Assembly (NCBI GenBank): GCA_041648665.1
Contig: JBAZOP010000002.1
Span: forward strand, 50,262-114,261
DNA: 64,000 bases
From: a bacterium
GTDB taxonomy: Bacteria > UBA10199 > 2-02-FULL-44-16 > JAAZCA01
Direction: 5' to 3'
Part shown: positions 1 through 39,704 of the stretch, in pieces
Position numbering within the stretch: the first letter of the stretch is position 1
How the letters are laid out: the number at the start of each line of letters is the position of its first letter
Program-made: the position numbers and the translations under genes
The notes under the pieces: generated by a model
Databases searched by the model: none
What the model was told of the DNA's origin: nothing
What the model saw: the letters and a program-made list of their open reading frames with translations, nothing else

Positions 1-105
1 GCTCGCCCTTCGCTGGTTTCCCACACGGAGCGCTATGGCGGCTCCATACCTCACCAGCCCCGACCATCGCCACGCACTTCTTCTCGTCAGCCATCGTCGC
101 CTCCG

Positions 106-435
106 TCACGCCTTCCGGCGGTTGCCGCGGGCCGTCACCTCGACGCGCCTCCACCGCTTCCCGCAGTCCACGCACGTCCCGACCTCGGCCCCCCGCTGGT
201 AGACCACCGTGCCGCAGCGGTGCGGCTGCGGGGGGGCATCACGCGCCATCTCGTCCCGGCAGTCGTTGCAGATCCGCTTGCGCCCGTAGTGCAGGTACGG
301 CTGGACCTGCGAGCAGTTCAGGCACACAGGCATGCCGCACCGGAAGCACCGCGAGCGCACCAGGGCGCTGCTGTTCGCCGGAGCGAGGCAGTCGATGTCC
401 ACGACATTGCAGTGTTCCATTCGCATCGTCATGCG
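106..435 (-). CDS. Cys-rich zinc-ribbon protein (about 109 aa, several CxxC pairs)
   Basis: The ORF track 106..813 is a GC-rich run-through. The plausible start is the internal MTMRMEHC, which overlaps the stop of the upstream SWIM gene. CxxC pairs: CFRCG, CLNC, CNDC, CVDCG. Confidence 0.4.
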   Translation of the reverse strand, partial: RMTMRMEHCNVVDIDCLAPANSSALVRSRCFRCGMPVCLNCSQVQPYLHYGRKRICNDCRDEMARDAPPQPHRCGTVVYQRGAEVGTCVDCGKRWRRVEVTARGNRRKA

Positions 436-863
436 GTCCTCCTCGCTGCTGCTGCGGACACCGCCGCGCGCCGCCCCGCCTCTGCCACCAGGACTTCCGG
501 GCGGTACACGATCATCTCCCGATCCCGGCTCACACCACGCTCGATCATCCCCGCGTAGTGCGCCATGGCCGCGATGACGTGCTTGCAGGCGTATGGCTGC
601 GCGCCAGGGTGCGCACGGTTCCACGCGTGCCCCCGATGGAAGTAGTCGGCGCAGGAGCAGTACAGGACGCCATCGCTGCCCAGCCGCAGGACGTAGTAGC
701 CGCCCCCGTGAACGCCCGCCCCCCCCAGAGGGCGCCCGCAGACCTCCTGGCGCTGGCCCCGGCGCGTGCGCCGGTACAGGGCCACCACGTTCGGGTGGCC
801 ATCGGAGTCGCACAGGCGCCGCAGGTGTCTACCTGGCGTGCACGCGTGCAAGTACATGGCCAC
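429..863 (-). CDS. SWIM zinc-finger domain protein
   Basis: CSCADYFHRGH...CKHVIAAM matches the SWIM CxCx(n)CxH signature. A good promoter motif lies upstream at about 897-940. Confidence 0.55.
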   Translation of the reverse strand: MAMYLHACTPGRHLRRLCDSDGHPNVVALYRRTRRGQRQEVCGRPLGGAGVHGGGYYVLRLGSDGVLYCSCADYFHRGHAWNRAHPGAQPYACKHVIAAMAHYAGMIERGVSRDREMIVYRPEVLVAEAGRRAAVSAAAARRTA

Positions 864-896
864 CTCCTTCGCCCAGCATCCGCGCCGGGCCTCCGC

Positions 897-940
897 TCAC
901 ACCCCTATATTAACCACTGAAACAGGTTTGTCAACAGGAA
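897..940 (-). promoter_or_regulatory. sigma70-like promoter (TTGACA, 16 nt, TAATAT) inside conserved CTGTTGACAAAC motif
   Basis: Minus-strand read CCTGTTGACAAACCTGTTTCAGTGGTTAATATAGG. It belongs to the 7-member motif family. Confidence 0.4.
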
Positions 941-943
941 AAG

Positions 944-1555
944 TTATGCAGCATCCCAGCGCTGCCAGCAGGCGAGGCAGAGGAGGTTGGTCGCGCCCGA
1001 AGCCCAGGCACGAACGCGCGCCTCCAAGATATCCGGAGGTGCCGTGCGCCGCAGATAGGCGCACGTGGATCCTGACAACCGGCGCTCCACCTGCGCCCCG
1101 CACCCAGGGCACTTCCACCCGACAACGATCGATCCGTCCCGTTGGACTTCCGCCTCATACTCGACCGGCCCACGGGTCCCCGTCCAACCGAATGGCCACT
1201 GCTCCGGGAGCGGCCGCTTCGCGTGAACACGCATCTTGCCCAAGCGAGCGCGGCCAGCCTTCTTGGGAATGGCAACGAACGAAGATTTGCGAGCTGCAGC
1301 AGCTTCCTCGCGAGCAACCGCTTCGATCTCTCGAATGCGGGCCAGCGCAGACGCCCGCTCGTGCTCTGGCGTGCCGCTATGCGCCGCCAGGGACTGGAGC
1401 CGCTGCAGCAGCTGAGATCGATTCACCTCGATCCTCCTCGCCGATCTGGCGGGACGACCTGGATCACAAGCGGCTCCGTCTTCTCGCGGAACAAGGCCCC
1501 AGCCGCGTACAGCCGCGTCTGCGCCTGCGCCTCCGGCAACCCACTGGGGTACCAC
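944..1555 (-). CDS. hypothetical protein with C-terminal zinc ribbon (CPGCG...CLAC); the true start is probably internal (about 1440)
   Basis: Long ORF; its N-terminus overlaps the 3' end of the phosphoesterase gene. The coiled region followed by CxxC...CxxC looks like genuine coding sequence. Confidence 0.4.
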   Translation of the reverse strand: MVPQWVAGGAGADAAVRGWGLVPREDGAACDPGRPARSARRIEVNRSQLLQRLQSLAAHSGTPEHERASALARIREIEAVAREEAAAARKSSFVAIPKKAGRARLGKMRVHAKRPLPEQWPFGWTGTRGPVEYEAEVQRDGSIVVGWKCPGCGAQVERRLSGSTCAYLRRTAPPDILEARVRAWASGATNLLCLACWQRWDAA

Positions 1556-2163
1556 GTGTAGCGCTCCTTGTGCTCGTGGCCCATCAGCACGATGTCGGCC
1601 CGCCCCAGGACCACCTCGAAGAACTCCTTCGCGTCCTTCAACCGGCAGAACCAGTCGGTGTAGTACGGGTTGTGGTGCAGGGCCACCACGCTCACCGCCC
1701 GGTGCTTCTTCATCTCATCCAGCTTCCACCTCAGCCTGGTGCGCTGCCAGAACCCCACGCGGCCCTGCGCGAAGTCCACGATGCTGCCGGTCCGCAGACA
1801 GGTGTCGAGGCCAATGATCTGCCCCACAGGGAAGCCATCCACGCGGAACATCCAGTTCGTCTCGGCAGCCAGCGCCACCCGCAGCGTGGCGAACCGCCGC
1901 ACGCAGTCCGCGCTGTAGAAGTTGCCCAGCCGCCCGAAGTCGTGGTTCCCGGGAACCAGCATCAGGCGCCCCGTGAACGGCGCGAGGAGCACTTCCGCCT
2001 TGGCGTACTGATCCTCCTTGCCGTCGTCCGTGATGTCGCCGGTCGCCACCACCACGTCGCCCGCCGTGAACATATCCAGGATGCCAGCGAGCTTCTCGCG
2101 CACCACGGCGTTGTCCTTGTTATTGCCGCGGATGTGCAGGTCGCTGATGTGGATGATGCGCAT
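1423..2163 (-). CDS. calcineurin-like metallophosphoesterase
   Basis: MRIIHISDLHIRG...ATGDITDDG...VPGNHD...ALHHNPY...MGHEHK are the classic metallophosphatase motifs. The start was taken at the internal ATG (M160 of the ORF-track product), which overlaps the upstream gene as ATGA. Confidence 0.75.
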   Translation of the reverse strand: MRIIHISDLHIRGNNKDNAVVREKLAGILDMFTAGDVVVATGDITDDGKEDQYAKAEVLLAPFTGRLMLVPGNHDFGRLGNFYSADCVRRFATLRVALAAETNWMFRVDGFPVGQIIGLDTCLRTGSIVDFAQGRVGFWQRTRLRWKLDEMKKHRAVSVVALHHNPYYTDWFCRLKDAKEFFEVVLGRADIVLMGHEHKERYTWYPSGLPEAQAQTRLYAAGALFREKTEPLVIQVVPPDRRGGSR

Positions 2164-2164
2164 T

Positions 2165-2653
2165 TCAGTCTTCCTTCCAACGCCAGGTCCAGATGTGGGC
2201 CGGCCGCAGGCTCCCGATCGGGGGCGATCGGAAGATGAACAGCGCGCTCTCGCGCGGGTTGCTCGTCTGCTTGATACCGGGGGGCGCCACGAACTGCACG
2301 CGCGGCGACAGCAGCCGAATCTCGGCGCCGGCCGCCACCGCCGCCCGCCACCACGCCGTCGAGGGAGCCACGAGGCCCACCAGCACCGCCGTGGACCGTG
2401 GTTCCCGACCCACCTCCGCAATGGCCTTCTGCACCCACCGCTCCATCCCGCTAAAGCCCGGGTTGCACCACACCGTCTGGGAACACAGGGGCGTGCAGCA
2501 GTCCTGGTCCGCCCCGTAGCCCTCCCGATGGACCGGGACCACCCGCGCCTGGCCCACGCCGAACCACGGCCGCGCCAGGCCATCCAAATCCGCGTCGAGG
2601 TAGTACGGAACCACAGCGTTGTCCGCGCTCGCAGCCACATCCAGGTCGAACAA
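2165..2653 (-). CDS. hypothetical protein
   Basis: ORF coupled to the phosphoesterase start. Only a TTG start with a weak SD is available. Confidence 0.4.
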   Translation of the reverse strand: MFDLDVAASADNAVVPYYLDADLDGLARPWFGVGQARVVPVHREGYGADQDCCTPLCSQTVWCNPGFSGMERWVQKAIAEVGREPRSTAVLVGLVAPSTAWWRAAVAAGAEIRLLSPRVQFVAPPGIKQTSNPRESALFIFRSPPIGSLRPAHIWTWRWKED

Positions 2654-2742
2654 GAACTCGGGCTGTAGAGCCCGCAGCAGATCGATCGGCGTGCGCCACT
2701 CCTACCGGATACTATGTTCAGACTCTACTTGCGCGTTTTCCA

Positions 2743-3024
2743 TCATCGGTCAGCTCCTCGCACGACCAAGGTGATCTCTAGTCGGTAATCTACCTCCGGA
2801 TGCAGCGCATAGAAGCTCTCGTTGGAGATCTTTTTTGTGCTTGCAACTGGATGCCCCATCTCTTCGAGAACCACATCTTGCGCCACAATGAGATCAGAAT
2901 GCTGAACTAGGCGCTGGTCATAGAGCGCACGCGCAGCAGCGAGGATCTCGCCTATCAGGCGATCTCGCTCGCGACGCGTTGCATCAGACATCTTCGCGAT
3001 CTGGTATCCGCCGCGTCTCGGCAT
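2743..3024 (-). CDS. hypothetical small protein (alternative start 2991)
   Basis: MPRRGGYQIAKMSDATRRERDRLIGEILAAARALYDQ... Two candidate ATGs follow the stop of the radical SAM gene. Confidence 0.4.
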   Translation of the reverse strand: MPRRGGYQIAKMSDATRRERDRLIGEILAAARALYDQRLVQHSDLIVAQDVVLEEMGHPVASTKKISNESFYALHPEVDYRLEITLVVRGADR

Positions 3025-3034
3025 GACATGCCAC

Positions 3035-3790
3035 CTACTTTCCTCGGGGCGCGGGGCGTCCCGCCTCCAGCAGGTCGTGCTTGAACAGGTGCGCGCGCCC
3101 CTCCAGGAGCCGCGTGGCCGCAGCGAGGAACTCCGGCCAGCTGATGGCCCGGGCCCGCGCGTCGTGGTTCCACTTCCCGACCTTGACAAGGTCGGTCCGG
3201 TCCCGCACCGCGTCGATCGCCCGCAGCCCCTCCGCGGCGTCCAGCACCGGCTCGACGCTGACCCAGGTCCGCACGCCCGCGTCCCGAGCCAGATCGAGGG
3301 CACGGAGGCGCTCCGCGATGGGCGGCGCATGCGGCTCCCAGTGCTGCCGCATCGCCTCGTCCAGGAAGCAGATCGTGGTGCCCAAGCTCCAGCCGCACCG
3401 ATGGAGCTGCGGAAACAGCGGTACCACAGCCAGCGGGTTCTTGGTCAGCACCGTGACCTGGAGCAGCTCACGCTCGGCGATCTCTAGCGCGACCCCGAGG
3501 GCCTCCGCCTGCTCCGCCGTGCCGAGCGGGTCGGTCGCGAAGCTAAACAGGATCTCCCGGGGATCGCCGCGGTGCGCCGCAGCCGATGCCTCGAACCGCG
3601 CCCGCCAGTTTAGCTTCGGTCGCACCGTGGGCCAGTCCTCGGGGCGCACGCGAAGAGCGGCAGACGCATAGCAATAGCGACAAGCGTGGGCACAGCAGAT
3701 GGCGAGGTTGCACGCCAGCGGGGCGTACTCCAGGGCGCGCCCCCGGGGCGTGTAGATGAGATCGTCGCGCGCGGCCATGCGGTCATGCAT
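3035..3790 (-). CDS. radical SAM protein, SplB/DNA-photolyase-like (COG1533-like)
   Basis: CCAHACRYCY fits CX3CX2C with the CYCY signature. The ORF-track start at 3814 is the TTG of the TTGACA -35 box. The real start is probably ATG MHDRMAARD (3790) or MAARD (3778), possibly leaderless. Confidence 0.6.
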   Translation of the reverse strand: MHDRMAARDDLIYTPRGRALEYAPLACNLAICCAHACRYCYASAALRVRPEDWPTVRPKLNWRARFEASAAAHRGDPREILFSFATDPLGTAEQAEALGVALEIAERELLQVTVLTKNPLAVVPLFPQLHRCGWSLGTTICFLDEAMRQHWEPHAPPIAERLRALDLARDAGVRTWVSVEPVLDAAEGLRAIDAVRDRTDLVKVGKWNHDARARAISWPEFLAAATRLLEGRAHLFKHDLLEAGRPAPRGK

Positions 3791-3817
3791 ACGACAGCGG
3801 TGGGCGTTTGTCAACGA
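3775..3817 (-). promoter_or_regulatory. promoter, TTGACA, 17 nt, TATGCA (conserved motif family)
   Basis: CGTTGACAAACGCCCACCGCTGTCGTATGCATGACCGCATGG on the minus strand. An ATG 7-13 nt after the -10 suggests a leaderless transcript. Confidence 0.4.
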
Positions 3818-4098
3818 GGAAGTGGGCCGGCAGCCGCGAATGATACCTGCTGCAATATGTTGAACAGTTTTCTGCCACGCTTCCGCCGCACTCGCTCTGC
3901 TTCCTGTTCCTCTGGCGTTAGGCTATCCCACCATTCCTGCGCCTTGCGCTTCACCTCTGCCTGCTCCCGCTCCCGCCGTTCCTCTGTGCGCGACCCGATG
4001 CCGTGCGCCCTTCGCCACTTCGCTTCGCCCATGGGTAACCTCATCGCTTTTCCAGCATACCTCTCCGTTGGCATGCCGATCAACCGCGCAGGCGCCAC
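3811..4098 (-). CDS. hypothetical basic/acidic small protein
   Basis: Strong SD GGAGGAAAGGGG about 8 nt upstream of ATG (MAPARLIG). The stop overlaps the radical SAM region. Confidence 0.45.
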   Translation of the reverse strand: MAPARLIGMPTERYAGKAMRLPMGEAKWRRAHGIGSRTEERREREQAEVKRKAQEWWDSLTPEEQEAERVRRKRGRKLFNILQQVSFAAAGPLPR

Positions 4099-4511
4099 AT
4101 CGGGCGCCCCTTTCCTCCACGAGGCCCAGACTCAAACCCAGCCGACGCCAGTCGCCCCTGACGCGACAGGCGCCCCAGGGCGGCCGCCACCCGCAAGGCC
4201 GCATCGGGAGCAACGGCAACCCCTTCGGCCAGGGCCCGATCTACCAGCGCTGCGCAGGTCTGCGCCTCACCCTGGAGGGCCCCCGCCACCCATGGCGCCA
4301 GCGAGCGCGCAAGTGCCGGGGGCTTCTGACAGCGCAGGCCGCCAACCTTAACCAGTACCTCCCGGGGCGCGTCCTCCCCTGGCAACTGGGCCTCCACCAC
4401 CACGCCACGTGGATCCACGCGCAGCACACGCACAGACAGGTTGGGACGCACGAGGCGAGCTTGGAATGGACCCCCTTGCATCAGCGCACGCACAGTACTC
4501 CAACGCACCAT
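4080..4511 (-). CDS. hypothetical protein
   Basis: ORF lying between the MazG-like gene and the 3811..4098 gene. No recognisable motifs. Confidence 0.4.
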   Translation of the reverse strand: MVRWSTVRALMQGGPFQARLVRPNLSVRVLRVDPRGVVVEAQLPGEDAPREVLVKVGGLRCQKPPALARSLAPWVAGALQGEAQTCAALVDRALAEGVAVAPDAALRVAAALGRLSRQGRLASAGFESGPRGGKGRPMWRLRG

Positions 4512-4514
4512 AGC

Positions 4515-4925
4515 TCACATCCTTTTCCCGCCGTGCCTGTATGGTCGGCCACGGTTGAACTCGATCTTGTCCCGCAGCGCCCTGGACAGGTCGATCCCGC
4601 GCTCCCCGCAGAAGTCGAAGACTCGGATCAGCACATCCGCCATCTCCTCGGCTACCCCGGGAACCCCAGGTAGGTGATCCGATGGAGCAGCAAGCCCCTC
4701 CGGACTCCGCAGGTACTCTAACGCCTCGGACAGCTCCGAGTGCATCAGTGCGATCAGATCCCCGTCGCTCCTCGGGGCGTCCCACCAGCCGTGCTCACGC
4801 GCGATCTGGTGACATTCGGCCACCATGGCCGCGATCCCATCACACCACATCCGAGGATCGTCTCCATCTTCCTTTTTGTACACAAACGCATACGGCCCAA
4901 CCTTTTTGAATGTATCTGTCATCAC
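4515..4925 (-). CDS. MazG-like nucleoside triphosphate pyrophosphohydrolase
   Basis: ALMHSELSEALE ... EEMADVLIRVFDF ... KIEFNRGRPYRHGGKRM are the typical all-alpha MazG/HisE motifs. The start is GTG-ATG (MM). Confidence 0.65.
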   Translation of the reverse strand: MMTDTFKKVGPYAFVYKKEDGDDPRMWCDGIAAMVAECHQIAREHGWWDAPRSDGDLIALMHSELSEALEYLRSPEGLAAPSDHLPGVPGVAEEMADVLIRVFDFCGERGIDLSRALRDKIEFNRGRPYRHGGKRM

Positions 4926-5098
4926 TGGCCTCTATTGCGGATCTTCACCGTTCGATCCTCGCGCCTCCGAACCTCACACTCGGCCAACTCCAGCAGATCG
5001 CGTAGCTGGTCAGCGTCCACCTCCACCTCGCTCCAATCGTCGTCGGACTCTGCCAGTCGCTTACGGAACGCATCGACCAATGTTCTCTCCTCACTCAT
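4922..5098 (-). CDS. small acidic protein (58 aa, below the ORF-track cutoff)
   Basis: Hand-translated: MSEERTLVDAFRKRLAESDDDWSEVEVDADQLRDLLELAECEVRRREDRTVKIRNRGQ. Its stop overlaps the MazG start (TGATG) and its start sits 7 nt after the upstream stop. Confidence 0.3.
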   Translation of the reverse strand: MSEERTLVDAFRKRLAESDDDWSEVEVDADQLRDLLELAECEVRRREDRTVKIRNRGQ

Positions 5099-5104
5099 CT
5101 CATC

Positions 5105-5383
5105 TCATCCATTCTTCGATGTGGAATCTCGCAGCAGATCGCCCAGGTTCGTCCCGATCTTCGGTCCGCGATGCCCACGATGCTTCCCATTGTCATGAAC
5201 TGAAGTACACGACGTCATCATTTCGCCCAACGGAAGAAGCTGTTTTGCCACCTTCATCCGAACCACCTGCTCCCACGCTTCCTCGACATCGGCATCCGTC
5301 GCCAGCCCAGCTTCTCGTTGCGCCAAAACCGCTTCCAGTCTCGCATTCGCATCGAGAAACTCCTTCTGCTTGGACTTCAACAT
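5105..5383 (-). CDS. hypothetical protein
   Basis: 92-aa ORF, coiled/charged. Confidence 0.4.
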   Translation of the reverse strand: MLKSKQKEFLDANARLEAVLAQREAGLATDADVEEAWEQVVRMKVAKQLLPLGEMMTSCTSVHDNGKHRGHRGPKIGTNLGDLLRDSTSKNG

Positions 5384-5391
5384 GAACGCTC

Positions 5392-5940
5392 CTACGACCT
5401 CGCGTGCGTCAGGATCTTGCGGAACTCACGCTGGTCGAAGATCGCCTGCCGCACCGTCGTCGCGATCTCCGTCTGACGCTCGACCGGGACAAGGACCTGC
5501 ACCGCGCCACCGGTCCGGTCGCTGGACCGGAAGATGAGCAACGACCACCCCATCAGCTTCATCCCGATGGGCGAATTGATGCCGAAGTCGTCGATCCGGA
5601 ACAGCTCGATGTTCTCACCGCCCTTGCTGAGCCAGCCCGTCTCGATGCCCAGCCGCTGCGTCGTGATCGTGAACCGGTTCGACGCCGACTCGTACCAGCG
5701 GCAGATCAGGTAGACCAGCCCGGGGATGACGAACAGCAGCAGCAGGAAGATCAGCAGGATGATCTGCCCGACGCTGTAGAACACCGGGATTTCCCCCTTG
5801 TAGACCAGCTTCTCCTCGGAAACCTCCTGGCGCTTCGCGTTCGCCACGAGGTCCTCGCCGCAGAACCGGCACTTCTTCGCCACCGCCCGGATGGGCTCCC
5901 CACAAATCGGGCACGGGATCAGGTCGTTCGCTTCGGACAT
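5392..5940 (-). CDS. zinc-ribbon plus transmembrane plus bacterial PH-like domain protein
   Basis: CPICG...CRFCG at the N-terminus and a hydrophobic helix IILLIFLLLLFVIPGLVYLI. The C-terminal region resembles a bPH/YdbT-like domain. Start taken at M23 (MSEANDL) because the track N-terminus overlaps the tRNA. GC is visibly lower than in neighbouring genes. Confidence 0.5.
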   Translation of the reverse strand: MSEANDLIPCPICGEPIRAVAKKCRFCGEDLVANAKRQEVSEEKLVYKGEIPVFYSVGQIILLIFLLLLFVIPGLVYLICRWYESASNRFTITTQRLGIETGWLSKGGENIELFRIDDFGINSPIGMKLMGWSLLIFRSSDRTGGAVQVLVPVERQTEIATTVRQAIFDQREFRKILTHARS

Positions 5941-5976
5941 GATTGCTCTCCCTTCGGTTGCGCGCCTACTCCTCGA

Positions 5977-6050
5977 TCGGGGCGAGAGGATTCGAACCTC
6001 CGACATCCAGCTCCCAAAGCTGGCGCGCTACCAGGCTGCGCTACGCCCCG
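5977..6050 (-). tRNA. tRNA-Pro (anticodon TGG)
   Basis: Minus-strand read CGGGGCG-TA-GCGC-AGCCTGGTA-GCGC-G-CCAGC-TTTGGGA-GCTGG-ATGTC-GGAGG-TTCGAAT-CCTCT-CGCCCCG-A. All four stems pair, with U8, GG in the D-loop, TTCGAAT in the T-loop and anticodon TGG. No encoded CCA. Confidence 0.8.
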
Positions 6051-7398: not shown

Positions 7399-8478
7399 TC
7401 ACCCAGGAGTATAACCGCCGCTGGCGCGTTTGTCAACAGGTAAAACGCCTGGTTCCAGCGCACACGTGTGCGCCCCCTCCCCAGCGGGCCCCCACCCCAC
7501 GTCCAGCGGCTCCGCAGGTGGCCGGTACTCGCCCGCGTCCCGCCCGGCCGCGCGCCCCCGCTTAGCCCCCCCGGGGCCCGGGGCCAGGAACAGCCGCCAG
7601 AACCCCCCCACGAGGGCCTCGATGCTGGGCGCCGGGGCCAGCCGGCCCTGCGTGGTGGCCGCCACCGCCTCCCACCGCCCCACCGCGGCCCCCACCGTCC
7701 GCGCCACCAGCGCCTCCCCGTGCGCCCCCACCAGCGCCGCCACGCGCGCCCGGGTCCGGGGTGCCCACGCCGGCTCCGCCGCCACAGCGGGGCCGTAGCG
7801 GGCCTCCAGCGCAGCCACGTACACCGCCCGGATCCGATCCACCGCCCCCGGATCCCCCTCCCCTCCCTCGCTGCTGCCTTCTTCGATCTCCGTTTCGAGA
7901 TCGATCGCGCGCGCTACGCGCGGGGGGGGGATCTGTTCCTGTTCCTGTTCCTGTTCCTGTTCCTGGATCGGGGATGGCGTCCCGATGCCATCCGGTATGC
8001 CATCCGGTATGCCATCGAGAAGGCATCGCGCATGGCATCCGGAAGGCATCCGGAACGCCTTCCTGAAGGCTTTCAGGAAGGCAGGGGAGAGCCCCTCGCA
8101 CAAGGCTTCCAACAGGTGGAAAAAACTGCCCTTTAGCGGGCTACTGGGCAGCTCATCGAACGCCCGCGCCCACGATTTCAGCGCGTTCAGACTATTGGGC
8201 GTGTTGTACCGCAGGAAGTGCGGCAGCAGCACGACCTGGGCGTGCTCGTCGTACAGGGCGAACCCCTGCGCTTCGGCCTCCCGGAACGCGGCGATGTAGC
8301 GATCGAAGGGCCAGCGCTTCTCCGCCGCCAGCGCCTCCAGGCTGGCCTTGTACAGGCCGAACGGCGACGAGAGCGGCGTGGTTAGCAGGTGCAGGAAGAC
8401 CAGCTGGCAATCATCCGAGGCAAAGGGGAACTTGTCGTCGTTCCAGAGCAGGCAGTGCACCGTGCGGTACCGGCTCAT
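7399..8478 (-). CDS. putative replication initiation / replisome-organiser-like protein with internal repeat linker
   Basis: The N-terminal domain HCLLWNDDKFPFASDDCQLVFLHLL resembles phage replication-organiser N-domains. A DGIPDGIPDGIG and EQEQEQEQEQ linker follows. The C-terminal tail is translated across the promoter and palindrome, so the true 3' end is uncertain. Start at MSRYRTV overlaps the RHH stop as ATGA. Confidence 0.4.
   Translation of the reverse strand: MSRYRTVHCLLWNDDKFPFASDDCQLVFLHLLTTPLSSPFGLYKASLEALAAEKRWPFDRYIAAFREAEAQGFALYDEHAQVVLLPHFLRYNTPNSLNALKSWARAFDELPSSPLKGSFFHLLEALCEGLSPAFLKAFRKAFRMPSGCHARCLLDGIPDGIPDGIGTPSPIQEQEQEQEQEQIPPPRVARAIDLETEIEEGSSEGGEGDPGAVDRIRAVYVAALEARYGPAVAAEPAWAPRTRARVAALVGAHGEALVARTVGAAVGRWEAVAATTQGRLAPAPSIEALVGGFWRLFLAPGPGGAKRGRAAGRDAGEYRPPAEPLDVGWGPAGEGAHTCALEPGVLPVDKRASGGYTPG
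7403..7440 (-). promoter_or_regulatory. promoter, TTGACA, 17 nt, TATACT (conserved motif family)
   Basis: CTGTTGACAAACGCGCCAGCGGCGGTTATACTCC on the minus strand. The palindrome GCGCACACGTGTGCGC lies about 15 nt upstream of the -35 box. Confidence 0.5.
7933..7962. repeat. (CTGTTC)x5 hexanucleotide tandem repeat (encodes EQEQEQEQEQ on the minus strand)
   Basis: Read directly from the sequence. Lies inside the putative replication gene. Confidence 0.8.
7985..8017. repeat. 12-nt tandem repeat ATGCCATCCGGT, about 2.7 copies (encodes DGIPDGIPDGI)
   Basis: Read directly from the sequence, adjacent to the hexamer repeat. Confidence 0.75.
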
Positions 8479-8687
8479 GCTCCACCCCCCGGCGTGCACA
8501 CGTGTTCGCTCGGTTGCCCGGGATCCAGGTCCCGCAGGGTGCCCGCCTGCGCCTCGCGCTCGAACGCCTCATTGACCAGGGCCGACATCAGGTCCTGCAT
8601 GTTGACGCCGCGCACGGCGGCGAGCAGCTTCAGGCGCATCCGGGCTTCCGCGCCCAGGTGCACCGCCTTCCGATCATCGCTCGGCAT
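8475..8687 (-). CDS. ribbon-helix-helix (Arc/CopG-like) DNA-binding protein
   Basis: MPSDDRKAVHLGAEARMRLKLLAAVRGVNMQDLMSALVNEAFERE shows a beta-strand followed by two helices. SD GGAGGG sits 6 nt upstream. It is the first gene of the RHH-replication operon and diverges from the IS. Confidence 0.55.
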   Translation of the reverse strand: MPSDDRKAVHLGAEARMRLKLLAAVRGVNMQDLMSALVNEAFEREAQAGTLRDLDPGQPSEHVCTPGGGA

Positions 8688-10896: not shown

Positions 10897-12594
10897 TTAG
10901 GATCGCGTCGTGACGCGCAGAATTTCACCGCTGCGGAGGCCGACCACGGTGTCCCCGGCCGCGACCAGCCGCAACCCGGCGACCGCGGGATCGGCAATGC
11001 GACGGCCGACCTGCGCCCCGCGCTCGGGGAAGAGGGACAGCTCGCCGCCCTCGTCGATCAGGGCCACCACGCCCCGGGCAAGTCGGGCGACGTTCAGCGC
11101 GCCATGACCCACGTTACGATCGGCCCAGCGCAGCTGGGCGCCCGCACTGCCCACCGCGTACACGTAGCGGTCGACGCTGCCCCCGCGCTCGGCCAGGACC
11201 AGCAGGGCGCGCCCCCCGGCCCAGGCGTCCACCACGCGGGCGCCGTCCAGATCCGCCAGCCGCACCTGGTCGCTGCGGCCCGGGGCCGGGAACACGTTCG
11301 CGTACCACGCGCCCAGCACGCTCTGGAGGGCCACGCCGGGGTACAGCTGCGTCGCCAGGGGCGCCACGTTGGCCACCACGCGCGGGGCGGCAACGAGCTG
11401 CCCCCCCAGGCGCGCCAGCTGCACCTCGACCACGTGCTCGCCATCGTGGGCGTACAGGCGACCCTCGGCGGTGGTCAGCGCCGCAGCCTGCACGACGAGG
11501 GGCACCTCCGCCCCGCCATCCAGGGCGCGCATCCGGAGGCGCTGGCGGTCGATCCAGGCGTAGAGCGGCGTGCCGTCGGGGGCCCATGCCAGGGATCCCG
11601 CGCCATCCACGGGGACCTGCCGAGGAGGCCGGGTGCCGTCCCATAGCGTCACCGCGCACCCCGCTGGTCCCCGGACCAAAGCTGCCTCCGCGCCGCCGGG
11701 GATCGCCACGTACTCCAGCACATCCCCATCCACGACATGGAGCACGCGCAGGTCCACGTGCCCGGCGCTCGAAGCAGGCCGCAGCCCACGCATGGGCGCG
11801 CTGGCTTGGGCGCTGGCGGGCGGGGGATCGCGGCGGCCGGCCTCGAACACAGCGCGGTACCAGTCGCGATAGGCGCTCGGGATCACGTCTAGGGGCGGCA
11901 CCAGCGGGGGCACCGACACGGCGGCGTTGAACACCGAGAGGTTGGCGCGCATGCGATCGGGCAGACCACGCACCGTGGGGTGGCGCCCCTTGTAGGGGTG
12001 GATGCCAACGAACAGCTGGAAGGTCACGATGCCCCAGGAAAACCAGTCGGATCCTGTGGTCCAGCAGCCCTGGGCGTGCCAATCCCGCACGCTCTCCATC
12101 AGGGCGGTGGCCGGGAAGCGAGGCGTCTGGTAGGAGTCCACATCGATGAAGCACACCTCCTCGAAGGTGGCGGTGGCCAGGAAGTTCATCTCGTTGGCGT
12201 CCACCACCAGCACGCGGGCGGCGTGCACTGCCTCCATGCTGGCGCGCATGCGCTGCACGAGGCGCAGCACCGTGGAGCCATCCAGGCCGTGCCGCGCCTG
12301 GAATGCCCGGGTGAAGAGCTGGCAGAGCGGGAAGGCATCCGGAACACGGCGCATGCTGTAGCCGACCGGGCGCCCCCGGCCGTCCAGCAGCACGCGCTGC
12401 GGCCGGATCACGCTGTCGTCAGCGATCGCGCTCAACTCGTCGATCTTAGCCTCGGGGACCATGCGCTCGGGCTTCAGGTAGACCTTGAACGCCTCGTCCC
12501 CGTGAGCGTAGACCTGCCCCTCGCCGCCCGCGCCCAGGAAGTTGGCCTGGGTCAGCACGACCTCGCCGCCCCCCCGCATTCGGTACTTCGTCAT
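10897..12594 (-). CDS. Ser/Thr protein kinase-like protein with C-terminal repeat/beta-rich domain
   Basis: Gly-loop LGAGGEGQVY, AFKVY lysine, a D-x4-N catalytic loop (VVDANEMN), DVD in the DFG position, and DWFSWGIVTFQLFVGIHPY as the subdomain IX equivalent. Last gene of the vWA-PP2C-kinase triad. Confidence 0.6.
   Translation of the reverse strand: MTKYRMRGGGEVVLTQANFLGAGGEGQVYAHGDEAFKVYLKPERMVPEAKIDELSAIADDSVIRPQRVLLDGRGRPVGYSMRRVPDAFPLCQLFTRAFQARHGLDGSTVLRLVQRMRASMEAVHAARVLVVDANEMNFLATATFEEVCFIDVDSYQTPRFPATALMESVRDWHAQGCWTTGSDWFSWGIVTFQLFVGIHPYKGRHPTVRGLPDRMRANLSVFNAAVSVPPLVPPLDVIPSAYRDWYRAVFEAGRRDPPPASAQASAPMRGLRPASSAGHVDLRVLHVVDGDVLEYVAIPGGAEAALVRGPAGCAVTLWDGTRPPRQVPVDGAGSLAWAPDGTPLYAWIDRQRLRMRALDGGAEVPLVVQAAALTTAEGRLYAHDGEHVVEVQLARLGGQLVAAPRVVANVAPLATQLYPGVALQSVLGAWYANVFPAPGRSDQVRLADLDGARVVDAWAGGRALLVLAERGGSVDRYVYAVGSAGAQLRWADRNVGHGALNVARLARGVVALIDEGGELSLFPERGAQVGRRIADPAVAGLRLVAAGDTVVGLRSGEILRVTTRS
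10903..10925 (-). terminator. possible hairpin terminator (CGCGTC-AC-GACGCG inverted repeat) after the kinase gene
   Basis: The inverted repeat sits immediately 3' of the kinase stop. No strong U-tract. Confidence 0.25.
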
Positions 12595-13403
12595 GCGCTG
12601 CCCTCCGCGCGCTCCAGGACCACCGCGCCCATGCTGAGGTCGTCATCGTGGCGCCATCCCCGCTGAGCGGCCTTCCGCAGGAACGCCTGGAGGCGCCGCT
12701 GCACAAACACGCCCTGGAGCCCCTTGAACGCCATCAACTCGCCCACGATCACCTCAGAGGGGATGGGCTGGTGGTCCGCATCCAGGAAGGAGCGCACACC
12801 ATCGCTGAACACAGCCACGACGGCGGCGTCCTCGATGGTCCGCTGGAAGGGCTGCACGCCCCGGCATCGCAGCTCCTCGCCATCCGGGCCACGCGCCACC
12901 CACTCCTCACGCTGCAGCACGGCCGCCATGCGCTGGTCGTCCACGAGGTAGTTGGCGTAGCGAGGGTATCCGTCGGGAGCCTCAACTTCCCAGATCCGCA
13001 GGGCGCCCCCCGGGTCCCGGGCGGCGATCACGCCGTCCCCGGTGCACGAGACGAAGGCCGAGGATCTTTGGCCCAGGGCGAAGACCAACGTGGCGTCCAT
13101 CGCCAATGGGTCCAGATTCCAGCACGTTTTCTGGAACAGACGGCGCCGGAGGTCGATCACCTCCATGGCGCCCCAACACCACCACGCGGGATCTGCCATG
13201 GAAGAAATGCGGCCTATTCCAACCTCGCAGCTCAGGGTGAGCAGCCGCGCGCCAACGTCCGTGTCGGGGCTGCCCGAGCAGCCGTCCGAGACGATGGCGT
13301 AGGGGCGGCCCTCTTGCGTCCGTCCGCACCGGGCGTAGTCCTGGCAGACCCGGTGGGCCGCCCCGATGACGTAGGCGCTGTCCGCGTTCGCCCGCATCTC
13401 CAT
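12591..13403 (-). CDS. PP2C-family Ser/Thr protein phosphatase
   Basis: Start MEMRANAD overlaps the vWA stop as TGATG. SDGCSG and SDGVRSF motifs, and a C-terminal DDLSMGAVVL typical of PPM phosphatases. The upstream track extension is GC-rich low-complexity sequence. Confidence 0.65.
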   Translation of the reverse strand: MEMRANADSAYVIGAAHRVCQDYARCGRTQEGRPYAIVSDGCSGSPDTDVGARLLTLSCEVGIGRISSMADPAWWCWGAMEVIDLRRRLFQKTCWNLDPLAMDATLVFALGQRSSAFVSCTGDGVIAARDPGGALRIWEVEAPDGYPRYANYLVDDQRMAAVLQREEWVARGPDGEELRCRGVQPFQRTIEDAAVVAVFSDGVRSFLDADHQPIPSEVIVGELMAFKGLQGVFVQRRLQAFLRKAAQRGWRHDDDLSMGAVVLERAEGSA

Positions 13404-14155
13404 CAGAGGCTGAAGGACATCGGCTGCGAGGGGCCGCCGGTTCCGAGCGCCTGGGACTGGGCGCTGATGCTCTTGCTCACGAAGGCCGCCAACTTGGCCA
13501 GCGTCCGCGCGCTCGCGTCCTTGGTCTCGACGTACTGTCCGATCCCAGCCTCCTGCTGGAAGGCGACCAGGGCGCCGCTCACCTGCGGGTCGTTGCCCAC
13601 CCCGACGCCCACCAGGATGGACACCTGGCTCTCCAGCGCCTCGGACTGGATGGCGCGCTCCAGCTGCGCCCGCACCTGCCCCGGGCCCCCCGCGGAGGCG
13701 TTGTCGCAGCCGTCGGAGATGATCACGGCCACCCCGTTCACGGCGTAGTCGCTGCCGACCAGGGTACGCGCGTAGTCGGCCTGCGCGTGCACGGCGTGCT
13801 CCGCCGCGTCGAACAGCGCCGTCATGCCGCCGCACGACAGGCAGCCGCGGTAGTCGTCGAGGTTGCAGTTGGCGAGCAGCTTGAAGCCGTGCACCTCCCG
13901 CATGTGGTCGTTGAAGGTGATCATCCGCAGCATCAGGTTGTCGGCCCGGGGAGACAGCTTGCAGGCGTTGACCACCTCGCGGATGGCCTGCTCCATATCC
14001 GCAGCGTAGGGCCCCACGGACCCGCTCACGTCCACGGCCAGCGTGACCAGGGTGTACTCGGCCGCCCCCAGGGCGTCCAGGCGCGTGGCGCTGTACCCGA
14101 ACGCGGTGGTCGGGAGCGCGCGCTCCTCCATGGACAGGTCGTTGATCTTCGGCAT
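13403..14155 (-). CDS. von Willebrand factor A (vWA, TerY-like) domain protein
   Basis: MIDAS motif LAVDVSGSVG. SD GAGGGAA. Start at MPKINDL (M137 of the track ORF). Confidence 0.65.
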   Translation of the reverse strand: MPKINDLSMEERALPTTAFGYSATRLDALGAAEYTLVTLAVDVSGSVGPYAADMEQAIREVVNACKLSPRADNLMLRMITFNDHMREVHGFKLLANCNLDDYRGCLSCGGMTALFDAAEHAVHAQADYARTLVGSDYAVNGVAVIISDGCDNASAGGPGQVRAQLERAIQSEALESQVSILVGVGVGNDPQVSGALVAFQQEAGIGQYVETKDASARTLAKLAAFVSKSISAQSQALGTGGPSQPMSFSL

Positions 14156-15755: not shown

Positions 15756-16928
15756 TCACGCACCCACGAGTCCCAGCGCCTGCTTGCATCGCTCCACCTC
15801 CTCTGGATCTCCCGAGTGCTTCGTGGGCACATCGGACAGCTTGACCGCGGGGCGCCACGGATTGGTCGGCCACGCCCGCGCCCGCGTCATCTTGATAACC
15901 ATGTTGAGGGGCCGCACCCCCGGGACGTCGCAGGTCAGCGACGTGCCAAGGAGGAACCGCGCCCCGATGCGTCCCTCCATCGCTGACCGAATCGCCTGGA
16001 CGTCGTCCAGGCCCAGGCCGTCGGAGAAGACCATGACCTTCGACCGTGGGTCGATGCCGAGCCGCTCGTAGTGGGCGATCACCTGCTGCGCGCACAGGAG
16101 CGGATCCCCAGAGTCCTGCCGCACGCCGTCGTAGATCCGCGCCCGGAGCCCGTTGAAGGCCCGCAAGAACACCGGCGTCGTGTAGGTGTCCAGGAGCCCG
16201 ATCCCGAGCGCTCCCCGGTAGGTCTCCACCCAGCGGTCGAGCGCGATCGCCGTCGCCTCCTCGTAGCCGAGGATTGCGCCATGGTACATGGTCCACTCGT
16301 GCGCCACGGTGCCCACGCAGGGGAGCCCCATCTCCAGTGCCATGCCCACGTTGCTGGTGGGGATGTTCAGGGCCGCGAGGACCCGCTGGTGTATCTCCCG
16401 CGAGAAGCGGCGCCGCGTGCCGCCCTCGACCACCGGCAGTTGATCCCGGCGGATGAGCAAGCCCTTGGCCGCCGCCCGGTTCACTACGTCCGCGTCGCGG
16501 GCGGGCAGGCTGCCCCCGTGCGACAGCAGGTGGTAGCGCTCGGAGATCAGCGCCATCAGCGGAACCTCCCAGAGCACGGTGCGCAGCCATGGACCGCGCA
16601 CGATCAGACGCAGACGGCGCTCCTCGTCCAAGCTGCACTCCACGATCTCGGACGGGTCGAAGCGGTAGCGCGCCAAGAAGGAGCGGTACCACGGCTGCAC
16701 CGGCAGGACGCGCCCCAGGCCGTCAACCTCGGACTCGGTGAGCGCTGGAGCCGCGACCAGCTCCTCATCGATCCAGCTGCGCAGCTGGGCAAAGGCGGCA
16801 GGCCACGCCACAGGCGTCCGCACGATCAGCTCGTACTCCGCCTCCGCCTGGGGGTAGTGCTGCCCGATGGCTTGCTGCATCGAAAACTTGTAGAGGTCGG
16901 TATCGAGCAAGTGCATCACACGCTCCAT
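15756..16928 (-). CDS. pncB: nicotinate phosphoribosyltransferase (PncB/NAPRTase family)
   Basis: N-terminal LLDTDLYKFSMQQA is the NAPRTase signature. 390 aa. Confidence 0.75.
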   Translation of the reverse strand: MERVMHLLDTDLYKFSMQQAIGQHYPQAEAEYELIVRTPVAWPAAFAQLRSWIDEELVAAPALTESEVDGLGRVLPVQPWYRSFLARYRFDPSEIVECSLDEERRLRLIVRGPWLRTVLWEVPLMALISERYHLLSHGGSLPARDADVVNRAAAKGLLIRRDQLPVVEGGTRRRFSREIHQRVLAALNIPTSNVGMALEMGLPCVGTVAHEWTMYHGAILGYEEATAIALDRWVETYRGALGIGLLDTYTTPVFLRAFNGLRARIYDGVRQDSGDPLLCAQQVIAHYERLGIDPRSKVMVFSDGLGLDDVQAIRSAMEGRIGARFLLGTSLTCDVPGVRPLNMVIKMTRARAWPTNPWRPAVKLSDVPTKHSGDPEEVERCKQALGLVGA

Positions 16929-16957: not shown

Positions 16958-17536
16958 TCACCTGATGGACGCCGTGGCCCCGGCCTCGGCCAGGAGCCTC
17001 ACCGCCCGATCCGCCTCCTCCTTCGACACGCCCATCATCACCGTCGAAGGGGCGCAGTCGGTGAGGTCTTTGGAGTCCTTCAGCCCCAGGCCGGTCAACT
17101 CCCGGATCTCCTTGATGACGTTGATCTTCCTTTCGCCCACCATCTGCAAGATCACGTCGTACTTCTGCTCGGCAGATCCCGGGTGCAACCCCGCGTCCAC
17201 CTCTTTCAGGAACGCAGGCACATCGACAACGCTGCCACGCAGGTCGGCGATGGCCGCGAGGAGGCGCAGGTGATCGATCGGATCCGGCATTCGCAACCTG
17301 TCGAGGATGTCGGCGACACGCTCCCTCTGCTCGTCATCCTCCATCGCCTCCTTGGCGAGGATGCTTCTCTGTTCCTCCAAATCGTAGATTTTCTCGCGGA
17401 ACGCATCGTTCTCCGCCCGGAGTTGCGGGAGATGCTCCCGGAGGGTCGCGATCTCCGCTTCCATCTCGTCCGCCGTCTGCTGCTTCTTCTTCTTCTCGGC
17501 CATGGCATCCTCCTGTTTCGTTGTTTTGCTACCCAC
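16958..17536 (-). CDS. coiled-coil protein with ribosomal protein bL12 (L7/L12) C-terminal-domain homologue
   Basis: The C-terminus KINVIKEIRELTGLGLKDSKDLTDCAPSTVMMGVSKEEADRAVRLLAEAGATASI aligns with the L7/L12 CTD ([47 protein letters not shown]). The N-terminus is charged coiled coil. Confidence 0.6.
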   Translation of the reverse strand: MGSKTTKQEDAMAEKKKKQQTADEMEAEIATLREHLPQLRAENDAFREKIYDLEEQRSILAKEAMEDDEQRERVADILDRLRMPDPIDHLRLLAAIADLRGSVVDVPAFLKEVDAGLHPGSAEQKYDVILQMVGERKINVIKEIRELTGLGLKDSKDLTDCAPSTVMMGVSKEEADRAVRLLAEAGATASIR

Positions 17537-36217: not shown

Positions 36218-36229
36218 GGCTCTACCTCG

Positions 36230-39687: not shown

Positions 39688-39704
39688 AGCGTCGTCCTCC
39701 TAAA

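What the first reader, a model, noticed from the sequence alone, without database searches (positions are those of the whole stretch)
1423..4925. Nucleotide-metabolism cluster: metallophosphoesterase, SplB-like radical SAM (leaderless?) and MazG-like pyrophosphohydrolase
Three enzymes that act on nucleotides or DNA lesions are clustered with small zinc-finger proteins. Phage MazG-like and phosphoesterase proteins have been linked to alarmone or cyclic-nucleotide signal degradation (anti-CBASS/anti-Pycsar style) as well as house-cleaning. The radical SAM gene appears to start immediately after its -10 box, making it leaderless.
Basis: partly seen in the sequence, partly recalled or inferred. 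Interest (0 to 1): 0.5.

Follow-up and report, generated by a model that had tools for sequence, protein, structure and literature searches.

The report
Phage accessory genes, not an operon
The three enzymes are real genes in the early region of an uncultured high-GC tailed phage. They are an ordinary mosaic of independently mobile accessory genes; the only notable one is a small, widespread, uncharacterised radical SAM enzyme whose nearest characterised relatives act on DNA.

Summary
The three enzymes exist on the minus strand:
- A metallophosphoesterase (1423-2163) with all five catalytic motifs.
- A 247-aa radical SAM protein (3035-3778).
- A MazG-like pyrophosphohydrolase (4515-4922) with intact acidic motifs.

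It carries an in-frame TAG exactly where homologs have a conserved glutamine. The zinc-finger proteins lie outside the span.

- The radical SAM protein's best solved match is spore photoproduct lyase. It is somewhat closer to Pseudomonas phage M6 gp53, a DNA hypermodification isomerase. It fails every curated cut-off and has Phe in place of the lyase's catalytic Cys.
- The phosphoesterase resembles Rv0805 and GpdQ phosphodiesterases, not SbcD.

The cluster is not a conserved unit. Around 164 relatives of the radical SAM gene, the phosphoesterase, MazG and Dam families each appear in at most one locus. The recurrent partners are a ParB-N protein and an abutting Trm1-like methyltransferase, often just upstream of terminase.

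The leaderless claim rests on a 3-of-6 match to the -10 hexamer and is unsupported. The anti-CBASS reading has no specific support. Verdict: ordinary phage accessory region. The one real lead is the possible DNA-directed chemistry of the radical SAM family.

The parts
944..1426 (-). 160-aa Cys-rich (CxxC...CxxC) protein. Its start overlaps the MPE stop codon.
   Evidence: ORF and translation. Gene call in the identical Logan contig L085. 43% identical homolog just downstream of the MPE in related phage contig L086.
1423..2163 (-). Metallophosphoesterase, 246 aa, class-III phosphodiesterase-like (Rv0805/GpdQ type).
   Evidence: Pfam Metallophos 1e-18. Motifs D8-x-H10, G42-D43, G72-N73-H74, H163-H164 and G195-H196-x-H198 are invariant. 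Profile against PDB: Rv0805 1e-14, GpdQ 4e-13. AF2 model pLDDT 94.5; Foldseek top hit Rv0805 at 3e-13.
2165..2746 (-). Dam-family (PF05869) N6-adenine methyltransferase gene interrupted by an in-frame TAG (2702-2704) at codon 15.
   Evidence: Translation reads MMENAQVESEHSIR*EWRTP.... ATG 2746 overlaps the upstream stop as ATGA. The TAG sits at the nearly invariant Gln of the R-Q-E-W-R-T-P motif in 16 homologs. The read-through version scores 78.6 bits against 60.6 bits.
2743..3024 (-). 93-aa protein of unknown function, with no Cys motif.
   Evidence: ORF. L085 gene call. 55% identical homolog in L086, where it lies next to an SNF2 gene. No Pfam, PHROG, NCBIfam or PADLOC hit.
3035..3778 (-). 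247-aa radical SAM enzyme of the SPL / COG1533 / DUF5131 clan (alignment A1 family).
   Evidence: PF04055. C29-x3-C33-x2-C36 invariant, with Y35 and Y37. AF2 pLDDT 94.9. Best PDB fold is SPL 4FHC. Homology to M6 gp53. NCBI's own call of the identical protein starts at ATG 3778.
3779..3814 (-). Short spacer upstream of the radical SAM start, holding TTGACA-N17-TATGCA and no Shine-Dalgarno motif. The upstream ORF's stop codon TGA (3811-3813) lies inside it.
   Evidence: Sequence read directly. Not called by the promoter scan. No SD-like motif here, whereas 35 of 47 gene starts have one.
3811..4032 (-). 73-aa highly charged protein of unknown function.
   Evidence: ORF. L085 gene call. No family hit.
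4080..4511 (-). 143-aa protein of unknown function.
   Evidence: ORF. L085 gene call. Only sub-threshold hits.
4515..4922 (-). MazG-like all-alpha NTP pyrophosphohydrolase, 135 aa.
   Evidence: phrog_3301 at 3e-31. E63/E66/E69 and E93/D96 invariant. Profile against PDB: 4QGP 2.5e-8, DCTPP1 1e-6, MazZ 6e-5. 12,248 cluster representatives at E<=1e-3. 221 cultured phage records.

Best explanation
The span is part of the early or accessory region of an uncultured high-GC phage with a contractile tail. It holds four unrelated enzymes, each acquired independently, plus small proteins of unknown function. They probably share a polycistronic transcript but do not form one pathway.

Likely roles, all inferred:
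1. The MazG-like protein hydrolyses (d)NTPs or an alarmone to monophosphate plus pyrophosphate.
2. The metallophosphoesterase is a binuclear-metal phosphodiesterase of the Rv0805/GpdQ type. It acts on a small phosphodiester such as a cyclic or linear nucleotide. It is not an SbcCD-type DNA-end nuclease.
3. The radical SAM enzyme binds a [4Fe-4S] cluster and cleaves SAM to a 5'-deoxyadenosyl radical. It most likely abstracts a hydrogen from a nucleobase substituent in DNA, as its two characterised relatives do. Its exact reaction is unknown, and it is neither spore photoproduct lyase nor QueE.
4. The Dam-type methyltransferase gene is disabled or strongly attenuated by an amber codon.

Shown here: gene presence, intact catalytic motifs, fold and family placement, and the lack of conserved linkage. 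Inferred: substrates and co-transcription.
For: Phage context:
- Tail sheath, baseplate, tube and DnaD-like loader hits; nearly all genes are on one strand.

Catalytic motifs intact:
- MPE, radical SAM, MazG.

Family placement:
- MPE is closest to Rv0805 and GpdQ by profile and by fold.
- The radical SAM protein is closest to SPL by fold. With the same profile and database size it scores 32.5 bits against M6 gp53 and 21.1 bits against SPL. M6 gp53's activity on DNA is reported in PMC8989533.
- Bacterial COG1533 relatives are LexA-regulated in several phyla (PMC4951493).

No conserved linkage:
- By tblastn, only one of 84 loci holds the MPE, 7 kb away.
- By HMM, MPE, MazG and Dam occur in 1, 1 and 1 of 84 loci and in 0 of 80.
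- The closest radical SAM relatives (51-67% identity) have different neighbours.
- In related phage contig L086 the MPE keeps its downstream neighbours. The methyltransferase there is an MT-A70 type, and the radical-SAM-like gene is a DUF5131 about 8 kb away.

Tight packing suggests co-transcription:
- ATGA and TGATG overlaps and gaps of 10-50 nt.
- No terminator-like site falls in a gap between two genes of the span; counts were 3 found against 2.7 expected.
Against: - A weak parallel exists between this phage and L086: a radical-SAM-like gene, then a homolog of the 93-aa ORF, then an N6-adenine methyltransferase of a different family, then the MPE. This could reflect functional linkage rather than shared ancestry of the region.
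- Other nearby genes fit an anti-defence island better than a random mosaic. They include a NAPRTase at 15756-16928, and an HD_4 hydrolase just past the window's left edge in L085.
- No substrate was tested.
- Only 64 kb of a contig of about 161 kb was visible, so pathway partners could lie elsewhere.
Confidence: 0.65

Rival explanations
1. Anti-defence island. MazG depletes (p)ppGpp like Atd1. The phosphoesterase degrades cyclic nucleotide immune signals. The methyltransferase blocks restriction. NAD salvage counters NADase effectors.
For: - The MPE's closest solved relatives are cyclic-nucleotide or phosphodiester hydrolases.
- A phage MazG-like protein, Atd1, was reported to deplete (p)ppGpp and protect against TIR-STING toxicity. 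In that study anti-defence genes lay near methyltransferases and NAD biosynthesis genes (bioRxiv 10.1101/2022.06.09.495361).
- A NAPRTase lies in the window, and an HD_4 domain protein lies just beyond it.
Against: - No specific similarity to any known anti-CBASS or anti-Pycsar enzyme.
- PADLOC and NCBIfam matches of the MPE cover only the generic N-terminal metal-binding motifs.
- A cyanophage MazG does not hydrolyse magic-spot nucleotides (PMC6850273), so MazG substrates cannot be read from family membership.
- The MazG family is extremely common.
- The methyltransferase gene carries a stop codon.
- The genes are not co-inherited.
Confidence: 0.2
2. DNA modification module. The radical SAM enzyme installs or remodels a base modification on phage DNA together with a methyltransferase. 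MazG biases the dNTP pool, as MazZ does in Z-genome phages.
For: - Homology to M6 gp53, a DNA-acting radical SAM isomerase.
- In relatives the gene abuts a Trm1-like methyltransferase (32 of 84 and 12 of 80 loci) and a ParB-N protein (41 of 84 and 12 of 80 loci), often just before terminase.
- Other neighbours include C5 and N6/N4 methylases, DpdA/TGT, Mom and TAGT.
- MazZ is among the PDB matches of the MazG profile.
Against: - No homologs of M6 gp51, gp52, gp54, gp55 or gp58 in the window.
- No ParB-N or Trm1-like methyltransferase in the window.
- The adjacent Dam gene is interrupted.
- The MazG profile matches DCTPP1-type enzymes better than MazZ.
- Contig L092 has both this family and a full gp53-like cluster, so the two are not interchangeable.
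Confidence: 0.25
3. DNA repair module. The radical SAM enzyme is a light-independent lyase for UV or radical lesions, like SPL, and the phosphoesterase processes damaged ends.
For: - SPL is the best solved fold and profile match.
- The Tyr residues flanking the third cluster Cys (Y35, Y37) are conserved, as Y96 and Y98 are in SPL.
- Bacterial COG1533 genes belong to SOS regulons.
Against: - SPL's hydrogen-donor Cys140 aligns with an invariant Phe.
- The protein is about 90 residues shorter than SPL and scores 13.9 bits against a 400-bit cut-off on the SPL model.
- The MPE is not Mre11/SbcD-like.
- The spore photoproduct forms in dehydrated spore DNA (own knowledge), which is not an obvious substrate in a phage.
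Confidence: 0.1

Closest known systems
Spore photoproduct lyase (SplB; PDB 4FHC)
   Same: Radical SAM partial TIM barrel. CX3CX2C motif followed by the conserved C-x-Y-C-Y tyrosines. Best solved fold match (TMq 0.72). A shared 'EPG' region in the profile alignment.
   Different: 14% identity. About 90 residues shorter. The catalytic Cys140 is replaced by an invariant Phe. Far below the TIGR04070 and PF20903 cut-offs.
[quoted passage not shown]
   Same: Homologous radical SAM core (hhalign 96.7%, 22% identity over 175 columns). Shared FS(F)xTDP and (E/S)PGA motifs. Phage-encoded.
   Different: gp53 is 480 aa, with N- and C-terminal extensions. It works with a 5-hmdU pathway (hydroxymethylase, kinase, amino-acid transferase, PLP enzyme) that is absent from this window.
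COG1533 bacterial radical SAM proteins (PA0069, Rv2578c) and PF07505 DUF5131 (phage Gp37/Gp68)
   Same: Same clan: weak NCBIfam hits, and 14 of 35 family members touch PF07505. All are uncharacterised. JGI labels them 'DNA repair photolyase'.
   Different: Scores are far below the curated cut-offs (37 against 360, 22 against 430). The window protein itself does not match PF07505.
Rv0805 / Icc-CpdA / GpdQ class-III phosphodiesterases
   Same: All five metallophosphoesterase motifs. Full-length profile and fold match. Similar size of the catalytic domain.
   Different: 23-24% identity. Below the CpdA model cut-off (39.9 against 225 bits). Substrate unknown. The family is found almost only in uncultured phage-like contigs.
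Phage MazG-like pyrophosphohydrolases (phrog_3301; Atd1; cyanophage MazG; MazZ)
   Same: Single all-alpha MazG domain with the acidic metal-binding motifs. Very common in phages of Actinobacteria and Pseudomonas.
   Different: Substrate preference (dNTP, dGTP/dATP or ppGpp) cannot be assigned. Identity to any characterised member is low.

Membership tests
Spore photoproduct lyase (SplB, TIGR04070 / PF20903) | Score above the curated model cut-off | tested here: not met
   TIGR04070 13.9 bits against 400. PF20903 12.2 bits against 27.
Spore photoproduct lyase (SplB, TIGR04070 / PF20903) | CX3CX2C [4Fe-4S] motif with flanking Tyr residues (Y96/Y98 in the Geobacillus enzyme) | tested here: met
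   C29, C33 and C36 invariant. Y35 invariant, Y37 in at least 90% of sequences. Aligned to CMGHCHYCY of 4FHC.
Spore photoproduct lyase (SplB, TIGR04070 / PF20903) | Hydrogen-donor cysteine (Cys140/141) | tested here: not met
   In the profile alignment, Cys140 of 4FHC (Ala in the C140A entry 4FHE) pairs with the invariant Phe80.
Spore photoproduct lyase (SplB, TIGR04070 / PF20903) | Overall fold similarity | tested here: met
   Foldseek top hit 4FHC, E=7.3e-7, TMq 0.72, TMt 0.54.
QueE (7-carboxy-7-deazaguanine synthase) | Match to QueE models | tested here: not met
   No QueE family among the Pfam or NCBIfam hits at E<=0.1.
Radical SAM mobile pair (TIGR04470 protein B with TIGR04471 protein A) | Score above cut-off, and a partner protein A next to it | tested here: not met
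   45.7 bits against 410. None of the seven other ORFs of the region that were scanned (944-4925) matched TIGR04471.
M6 gp53-type DNA hypermodification isomerase | Homologous radical SAM core | tested here: met
   hhalign probability 96.7%, E=3.3e-10. hmmsearch 32.5 bits.
M6 gp53-type DNA hypermodification isomerase | Partner genes of the 5-hmdU pathway (hydroxymethylase, 5-HMUDK, amino-acid:DNA transferase, PLP enzyme) and a ~480-aa architecture | tested here: not met
   tblastn of M6 gp51, gp52, gp54, gp55 and gp58 against the window found nothing below E=0.008. The protein is 247 aa. Only 64 kb of the contig was visible.
Class-III cyclic nucleotide phosphodiesterase (Icc/CpdA/Rv0805) | Five metallophosphoesterase motifs and best fold/profile match | tested here: met
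   Motifs invariant. Rv0805 1.1e-14. Foldseek 3e-13.
Class-III cyclic nucleotide phosphodiesterase (Icc/CpdA/Rv0805) | Curated CpdA model cut-off; hydrolysis of cNMPs | tested here: not met
   NF008359 39.9 bits against 225. Enzyme activity cannot be tested with these tools.
SbcD/Mre11 DNA repair nuclease | Full-length similarity, including the nuclease capping region | tested here: not met
   Profile matches are limited to residues 1-75 (E about 1e-5). TIGR00619 20.6 bits against 77.65. Mre11 folds rank well below Rv0805.
Cluster A mycobacteriophage MPE (Bxb1 gp47 / A10ZJ24 gp48; PMC12287305) | Sequence relationship beyond the shared motifs | tested here: not met
   hhalign probability 6.8%, with only the GHxH motif aligned. 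tblastn of the MPE found just 2 weak hits in 50,697 phage records.
Acb1 / Apyc1 anti-CBASS and anti-Pycsar nucleases | 2H-phosphoesterase or metallo-beta-lactamase fold (from the literature, own knowledge) | tested here: not met
   The MPE model has a calcineurin-like fold. No 2H or MBL family hit for any ORF scanned.
MazG all-alpha NTP pyrophosphohydrolase | E-x2-E ... E-x2-D metal-binding motifs and a family match | tested here: met
   E63/E66/E69 and E93/D96 invariant. phrog_3301 3e-31. Profile against PDB chain 4QGP 2.5e-8. Pfam PF12643 alone is below its cut-off (14.6 against 27).
MazZ of Z-genome phages | Partner PurZ and DatZ genes | not tested
   No adenylosuccinate-synthetase-like hit among about 30 ORFs scanned. 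The window was not scanned exhaustively and the rest of the contig was not seen.
Phage Dam (PF05869 / TIGR01712) | Family match and an intact reading frame | tested here: inconclusive
   The domain match is clear: 78.6 bits when the TAG is read through. The frame is broken by a TAG at the conserved Gln15.

The most novel reading that the evidence does not exclude
The 240-aa radical SAM family represented here would be a third kind of DNA-directed radical SAM enzyme, after spore photoproduct lyase and M6 gp53. In its usual setting it would work as a three-gene cassette: a ParB-N protein, a Trm1-like methyltransferase and the radical SAM enzyme. The cassette would be expressed next to the packaging genes and would install or edit a base modification on phage DNA before encapsidation. 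In this phage the enzyme would have been separated from that cassette and would sit beside an amber-interrupted Dam gene.
Probability: 0.25. Interest if true: 0.65.

Novelty: new member of a known kind. Interest (0 to 1): 0.3.

Why it matters

The part worth keeping is the radical SAM family.
- It is small and widespread: 472 IMG/VR contigs and 231 of about 185,600 species genomes. It is rare in cultured phages (10 of 50,697 records) and is uncharacterised.
- Its two nearest characterised relatives both act on DNA.
- It has a recurrent, tightly coupled methyltransferase and ParB-N partner.

If it does perform new chemistry on DNA, it would add to the short list of radical enzymes that act on DNA. 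It would also add to the catalogue of phage DNA modifications that defeat restriction.

Tried and rejected
- DNA-level similarity of 900-5400 to 50,697 phage records: none.
- Exact look-up of the radical SAM protein's contig: not on record. The MPE look-up returned only an 8.7-kb Logan contig. It is 100% identical to window 1-6006 and extends 2.7 kb past the window start.
- TAG-to-Gln recoding as an explanation for the amber codon in Dam: rejected. TAG is the commonest stop of coding-like ORFs (25 of 39). Read-through extensions of TAG-terminated ORFs are mostly short or lack coding-like composition, and the longer coding-like ones run into the next gene. Only a tRNA-Pro was found.
- Thymidine hypermodification pathway of the M6 type: no partners in the window.
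- Relationship of the MPE to the host-DNA-degrading MPE of Cluster A mycobacteriophages: rejected.
- Defence-system membership: only generic N-terminal MPE motif matches.
- BFVD fold search for a close viral structural relative of the radical SAM protein: only generic radical SAM folds.
- Literature searches for DUF5131, COG1533 in phages, and a ParB plus radical SAM plus methyltransferase cassette: no functional study found.
- ParB-N or Trm1-like methyltransferase in the window: none at E<=10.

Full report
**Context.** The window is 59-75% G+C, about 67% overall. Almost all coding-like ORFs are on the minus strand. Hits identify a tailed phage or phage-derived element. They include a tail sheath (61820-63964), a baseplate wedge (40336-42555), a contractile-system tube protein, a T4 gp9/10-like protein and a DnaD-like helicase loader at 7399-8499. 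One tRNA-Pro(TGG) lies at 5977-6050. The proteins of the finding are 100% identical to proteins from a contig of about 161 kb that NCBI labels 'MAG... [bacterium]'. A Logan contig, L085, is 100% identical to window 1-6006 and continues 2.7 kb beyond the window start. No cultured phage shares DNA similarity with 900-5400.

**Anatomy of 900-5400, minus strand, in order of transcription.**
- MazG-like, 4515-4922. Its ATG shares one base with the stop of the upstream 58-aa ORF.
- A 143-aa ORF, 4080-4511.
- A 73-aa charged ORF, 3811-4032.
- The radical SAM gene, 3035-3778.
- A 93-aa ORF, 2743-3024.
- A Dam-type methyltransferase gene, 2165-2746.
- The metallophosphoesterase, 1423-2163.
- A 160-aa Cys-rich ORF, 944-1426.

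Gene limits agree with an independent gene call on L085, with two exceptions. L085 starts the radical SAM gene four codons earlier, at ATG 3790, and starts Dam at GTG 2638. The zinc-finger proteins are real but lie outside 1423-4925.

**Metallophosphoesterase.** Pfam Metallophos matches at E=1e-18. In an alignment of 35 homologs, all five motifs (DxH, GD, GNH, HH, GHxH) are invariant, so the protein should be active. A profile of the family matches Rv0805 (1e-14), GpdQ (4e-13) and Lmo2642 (9e-12) over the full length. It matches SbcD and Mre11 only over the first ~75 residues (about 1e-5). A confident AF2 model (pLDDT 94.5) gives the same ranking. The protein is unrelated beyond the motifs to the Cluster A mycobacteriophage phosphoesterase, which is reported to damage host DNA (PMC12287305). 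It has essentially no BLAST relatives among cultured phages, although more than 800 relatives exist in metagenomes. It falls below the curated CpdA cut-off. The supported label is therefore 'phosphodiesterase of the class-III type, substrate unknown'.

**Radical SAM protein: family and start codon.** PF04055 is just above its threshold. Weak matches go to TIGR04470, PA0069, Rv2578c and SPL, all far below their cut-offs, and none goes to QueE. The family is compact, about 240 aa. It starts 3-7 residues before a conserved IYEPKGRAxEYAPLACN segment. This fits a start at ATG 3778 (NCBI's call) or ATG 3790 (the Logan call), not TTG 3814.

**Radical SAM protein: relatives.**
- The AF2 model is confident (pLDDT 94.9). 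Its best solved match is spore photoproduct lyase 4FHC (E=7e-7, TMq 0.72), ahead of generic radical SAM folds.
- The family profile also finds SPL first in the PDB (21 bits, E=0.002).
- In that alignment the tyrosines around the third cluster cysteine are conserved. SPL's hydrogen-donor Cys140, however, aligns with an invariant Phe.
- With the same profile and database size, Pseudomonas phage M6 gp53 scores 32.5 bits, and hhalign gives 96.7% probability. M6 gp53 is the radical SAM isomerase that converts N-alpha-glycinylthymidine to the C-alpha form on DNA (PMC8989533).
- RadicalSAM.org groups SPL, MJ0683-like and DUF5131 proteins in one megacluster. 14 of 35 family members touch DUF5131.
- Bacterial COG1533 relatives are LexA-regulated in several phyla (PMC4951493).

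The protein is not an SPL, and its characterised relatives all deal with DNA.

**Is the cluster a unit?** No. I collected 84 loci around relatives from viral and metagenomic contigs and 80 from species-representative genomes.
- With tblastn, the window's phosphoesterase appears in one locus (L002, 44% identity, 7 kb away). Dam and MazG appear in none.
- With family HMMs, the counts are 1, 1 and 1 of 84, and 0 of 80.
- The closest relatives (51-67% identity) sit among NikA-like, SMC-like and unknown genes.

What does recur is a ParB-N protein (41 of 84 and 12 of 80 loci) and a roughly 190-aa methyltransferase. That methyltransferase has a Trm1-like D-x-D-x-Y-G-S-P motif (32 of 84 and 12 of 80 loci). 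It usually abuts or overlaps the radical SAM start, and the terminase large subunit often follows downstream. Other neighbours include C5 and N6/N4 methylases, DpdA/TGT, Mom and TAGT. Neither partner is in this window. Contig L092 carries both this family and a full gp53-like cluster: an ADDT-family (PF18724) protein, a PLP enzyme and a 459-aa radical SAM protein. The two radical SAM types are therefore distinct. Related phage contig L086 keeps the phosphoesterase and its downstream genes. There, however, the methyltransferase is an MT-A70 type and the radical-SAM-like gene is a DUF5131 about 8 kb upstream.

**MazG.** The acidic motifs are invariant. The family is very large, with 12,248 cluster representatives and 221 cultured phage records. 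Profile matches to an archaeal pyrophosphatase, DCTPP1 and MazZ are all distant. Published phage MazG proteins differ in substrate. Atd1 depletes (p)ppGpp, while a cyanophage MazG does not hydrolyse magic-spot nucleotides (title of PMC6850273). No substrate can be assigned here.

**Leaderless claim.** The sequence TTGACA-N17-TATGCA-N7-ATG is present. The second hexamer matches the -10 consensus at only three positions, and the scan did not call it. There is indeed no Shine-Dalgarno motif before ATG 3778, whereas 35 of 47 gene starts have one. However, the gene lies 30 nt after the stop of a co-directional ORF in a tightly packed array. Read-through transcription with re-initiation is the simpler reading. 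Only 5'-end mapping can settle it.

**Dam gene.** Read from ATG 2746, which overlaps the upstream stop as ATGA, the frame is MMENAQVESEHSIR-TAG-EWRTPIDLL.... In 16 homologs this position is the nearly invariant Gln of an R-Q-E-W-R-T-P motif. Including the N-terminal segment raises the Pfam score from 60.6 to 78.6 bits. TAG is not reassigned in this genome, because it is the commonest stop codon (25 TAG, 11 TGA, 3 TAA among coding-like ORFs of 150 or more codons). The simplest reading is a CAG-to-TAG change. It leaves either a pseudogene, an N-terminally truncated product, or a low level of read-through product.

**Verdict.** The interpretation as one functional nucleotide-metabolism or anti-signalling cluster, with a leaderless gene, is not supported. 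The region is an ordinary mosaic of phage accessory genes. The radical SAM family and its methyltransferase/ParB-N cassette are the one lead worth an experiment.

Noticed in passing
window 2702-2704 (within 2165-2746, minus strand): In-frame TAG at codon 15 of the Dam-type methyltransferase gene. It sits exactly at the nearly invariant Gln of the R-Q-E-W-R-T-P motif. It is either a nonsense mutation or an attenuating read-through site.
   Followed up: yes
whole window, minus-strand ORFs of 150 or more codons: TAG is the dominant stop codon (25 TAG, 11 TGA, 3 TAA), which is unusual for a genome of about 67% G+C. This argues against TAG recoding.
   Followed up: partly
window 15756-16928 (minus): Nicotinate phosphoribosyltransferase (Pfam NAPRTase 7e-40 plus the N-terminal domain). 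A phage NAD-salvage gene could counter NAD-depleting defences.
   Followed up: no
window 16958-17536 (minus): 192-aa protein whose C-terminus matches the ribosomal protein L7/L12 C-terminal domain (3.7e-22). It may be a phage-encoded ribosomal protein domain.
   Followed up: no
window 12591-13835 (minus): 414-aa protein with a PP2C-type protein phosphatase domain (5e-9).
   Followed up: no
window 24991-25932 (minus): Family-2 glycosyltransferase fused to TPR repeats, lying between tail and baseplate genes.
   Followed up: no
window 36000-40000: Segment of lower G+C (53-58%) holding a 1041-aa ORF (36562-39687) with weak codon-position bias. It may be a recently acquired tail-fibre-type gene.
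   Followed up: no
L085 6679-8731 (same phage, beyond window position 1): Downstream of the phosphoesterase the phage encodes an HD_4 domain protein (147 aa), SEC-C and KTSC domain proteins, and a Cpn10/GroES homolog. The same set recurs in related contig L086.
   Followed up: partly
L007 6589-8693, and about 40 other loci (for example L016, L021, L052, L096, L097): Recurrent cassette of a ParB-N protein, a Trm1-like methyltransferase (D-x-D-x-Y-G-S-P motif) and the radical SAM gene, often directly upstream of the terminase large subunit.
   Followed up: partly
L092 11430-14834: A contig carrying a relative of this radical SAM protein also carries a cluster resembling the M6 thymidine-hypermodification genes: a faint ParB-N hit, PF18724 (ADDT), a PLP enzyme and a 459-aa radical SAM protein.
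   Followed up: no
window 5392-6050 (minus): The 204-aa ORF 5392-6006 (zinc ribbon plus bacterial PH domain) overlaps the tRNA-Pro gene at 5977-6050, so its real start must lie further downstream. L085's call gives 182 aa.
   Followed up: no
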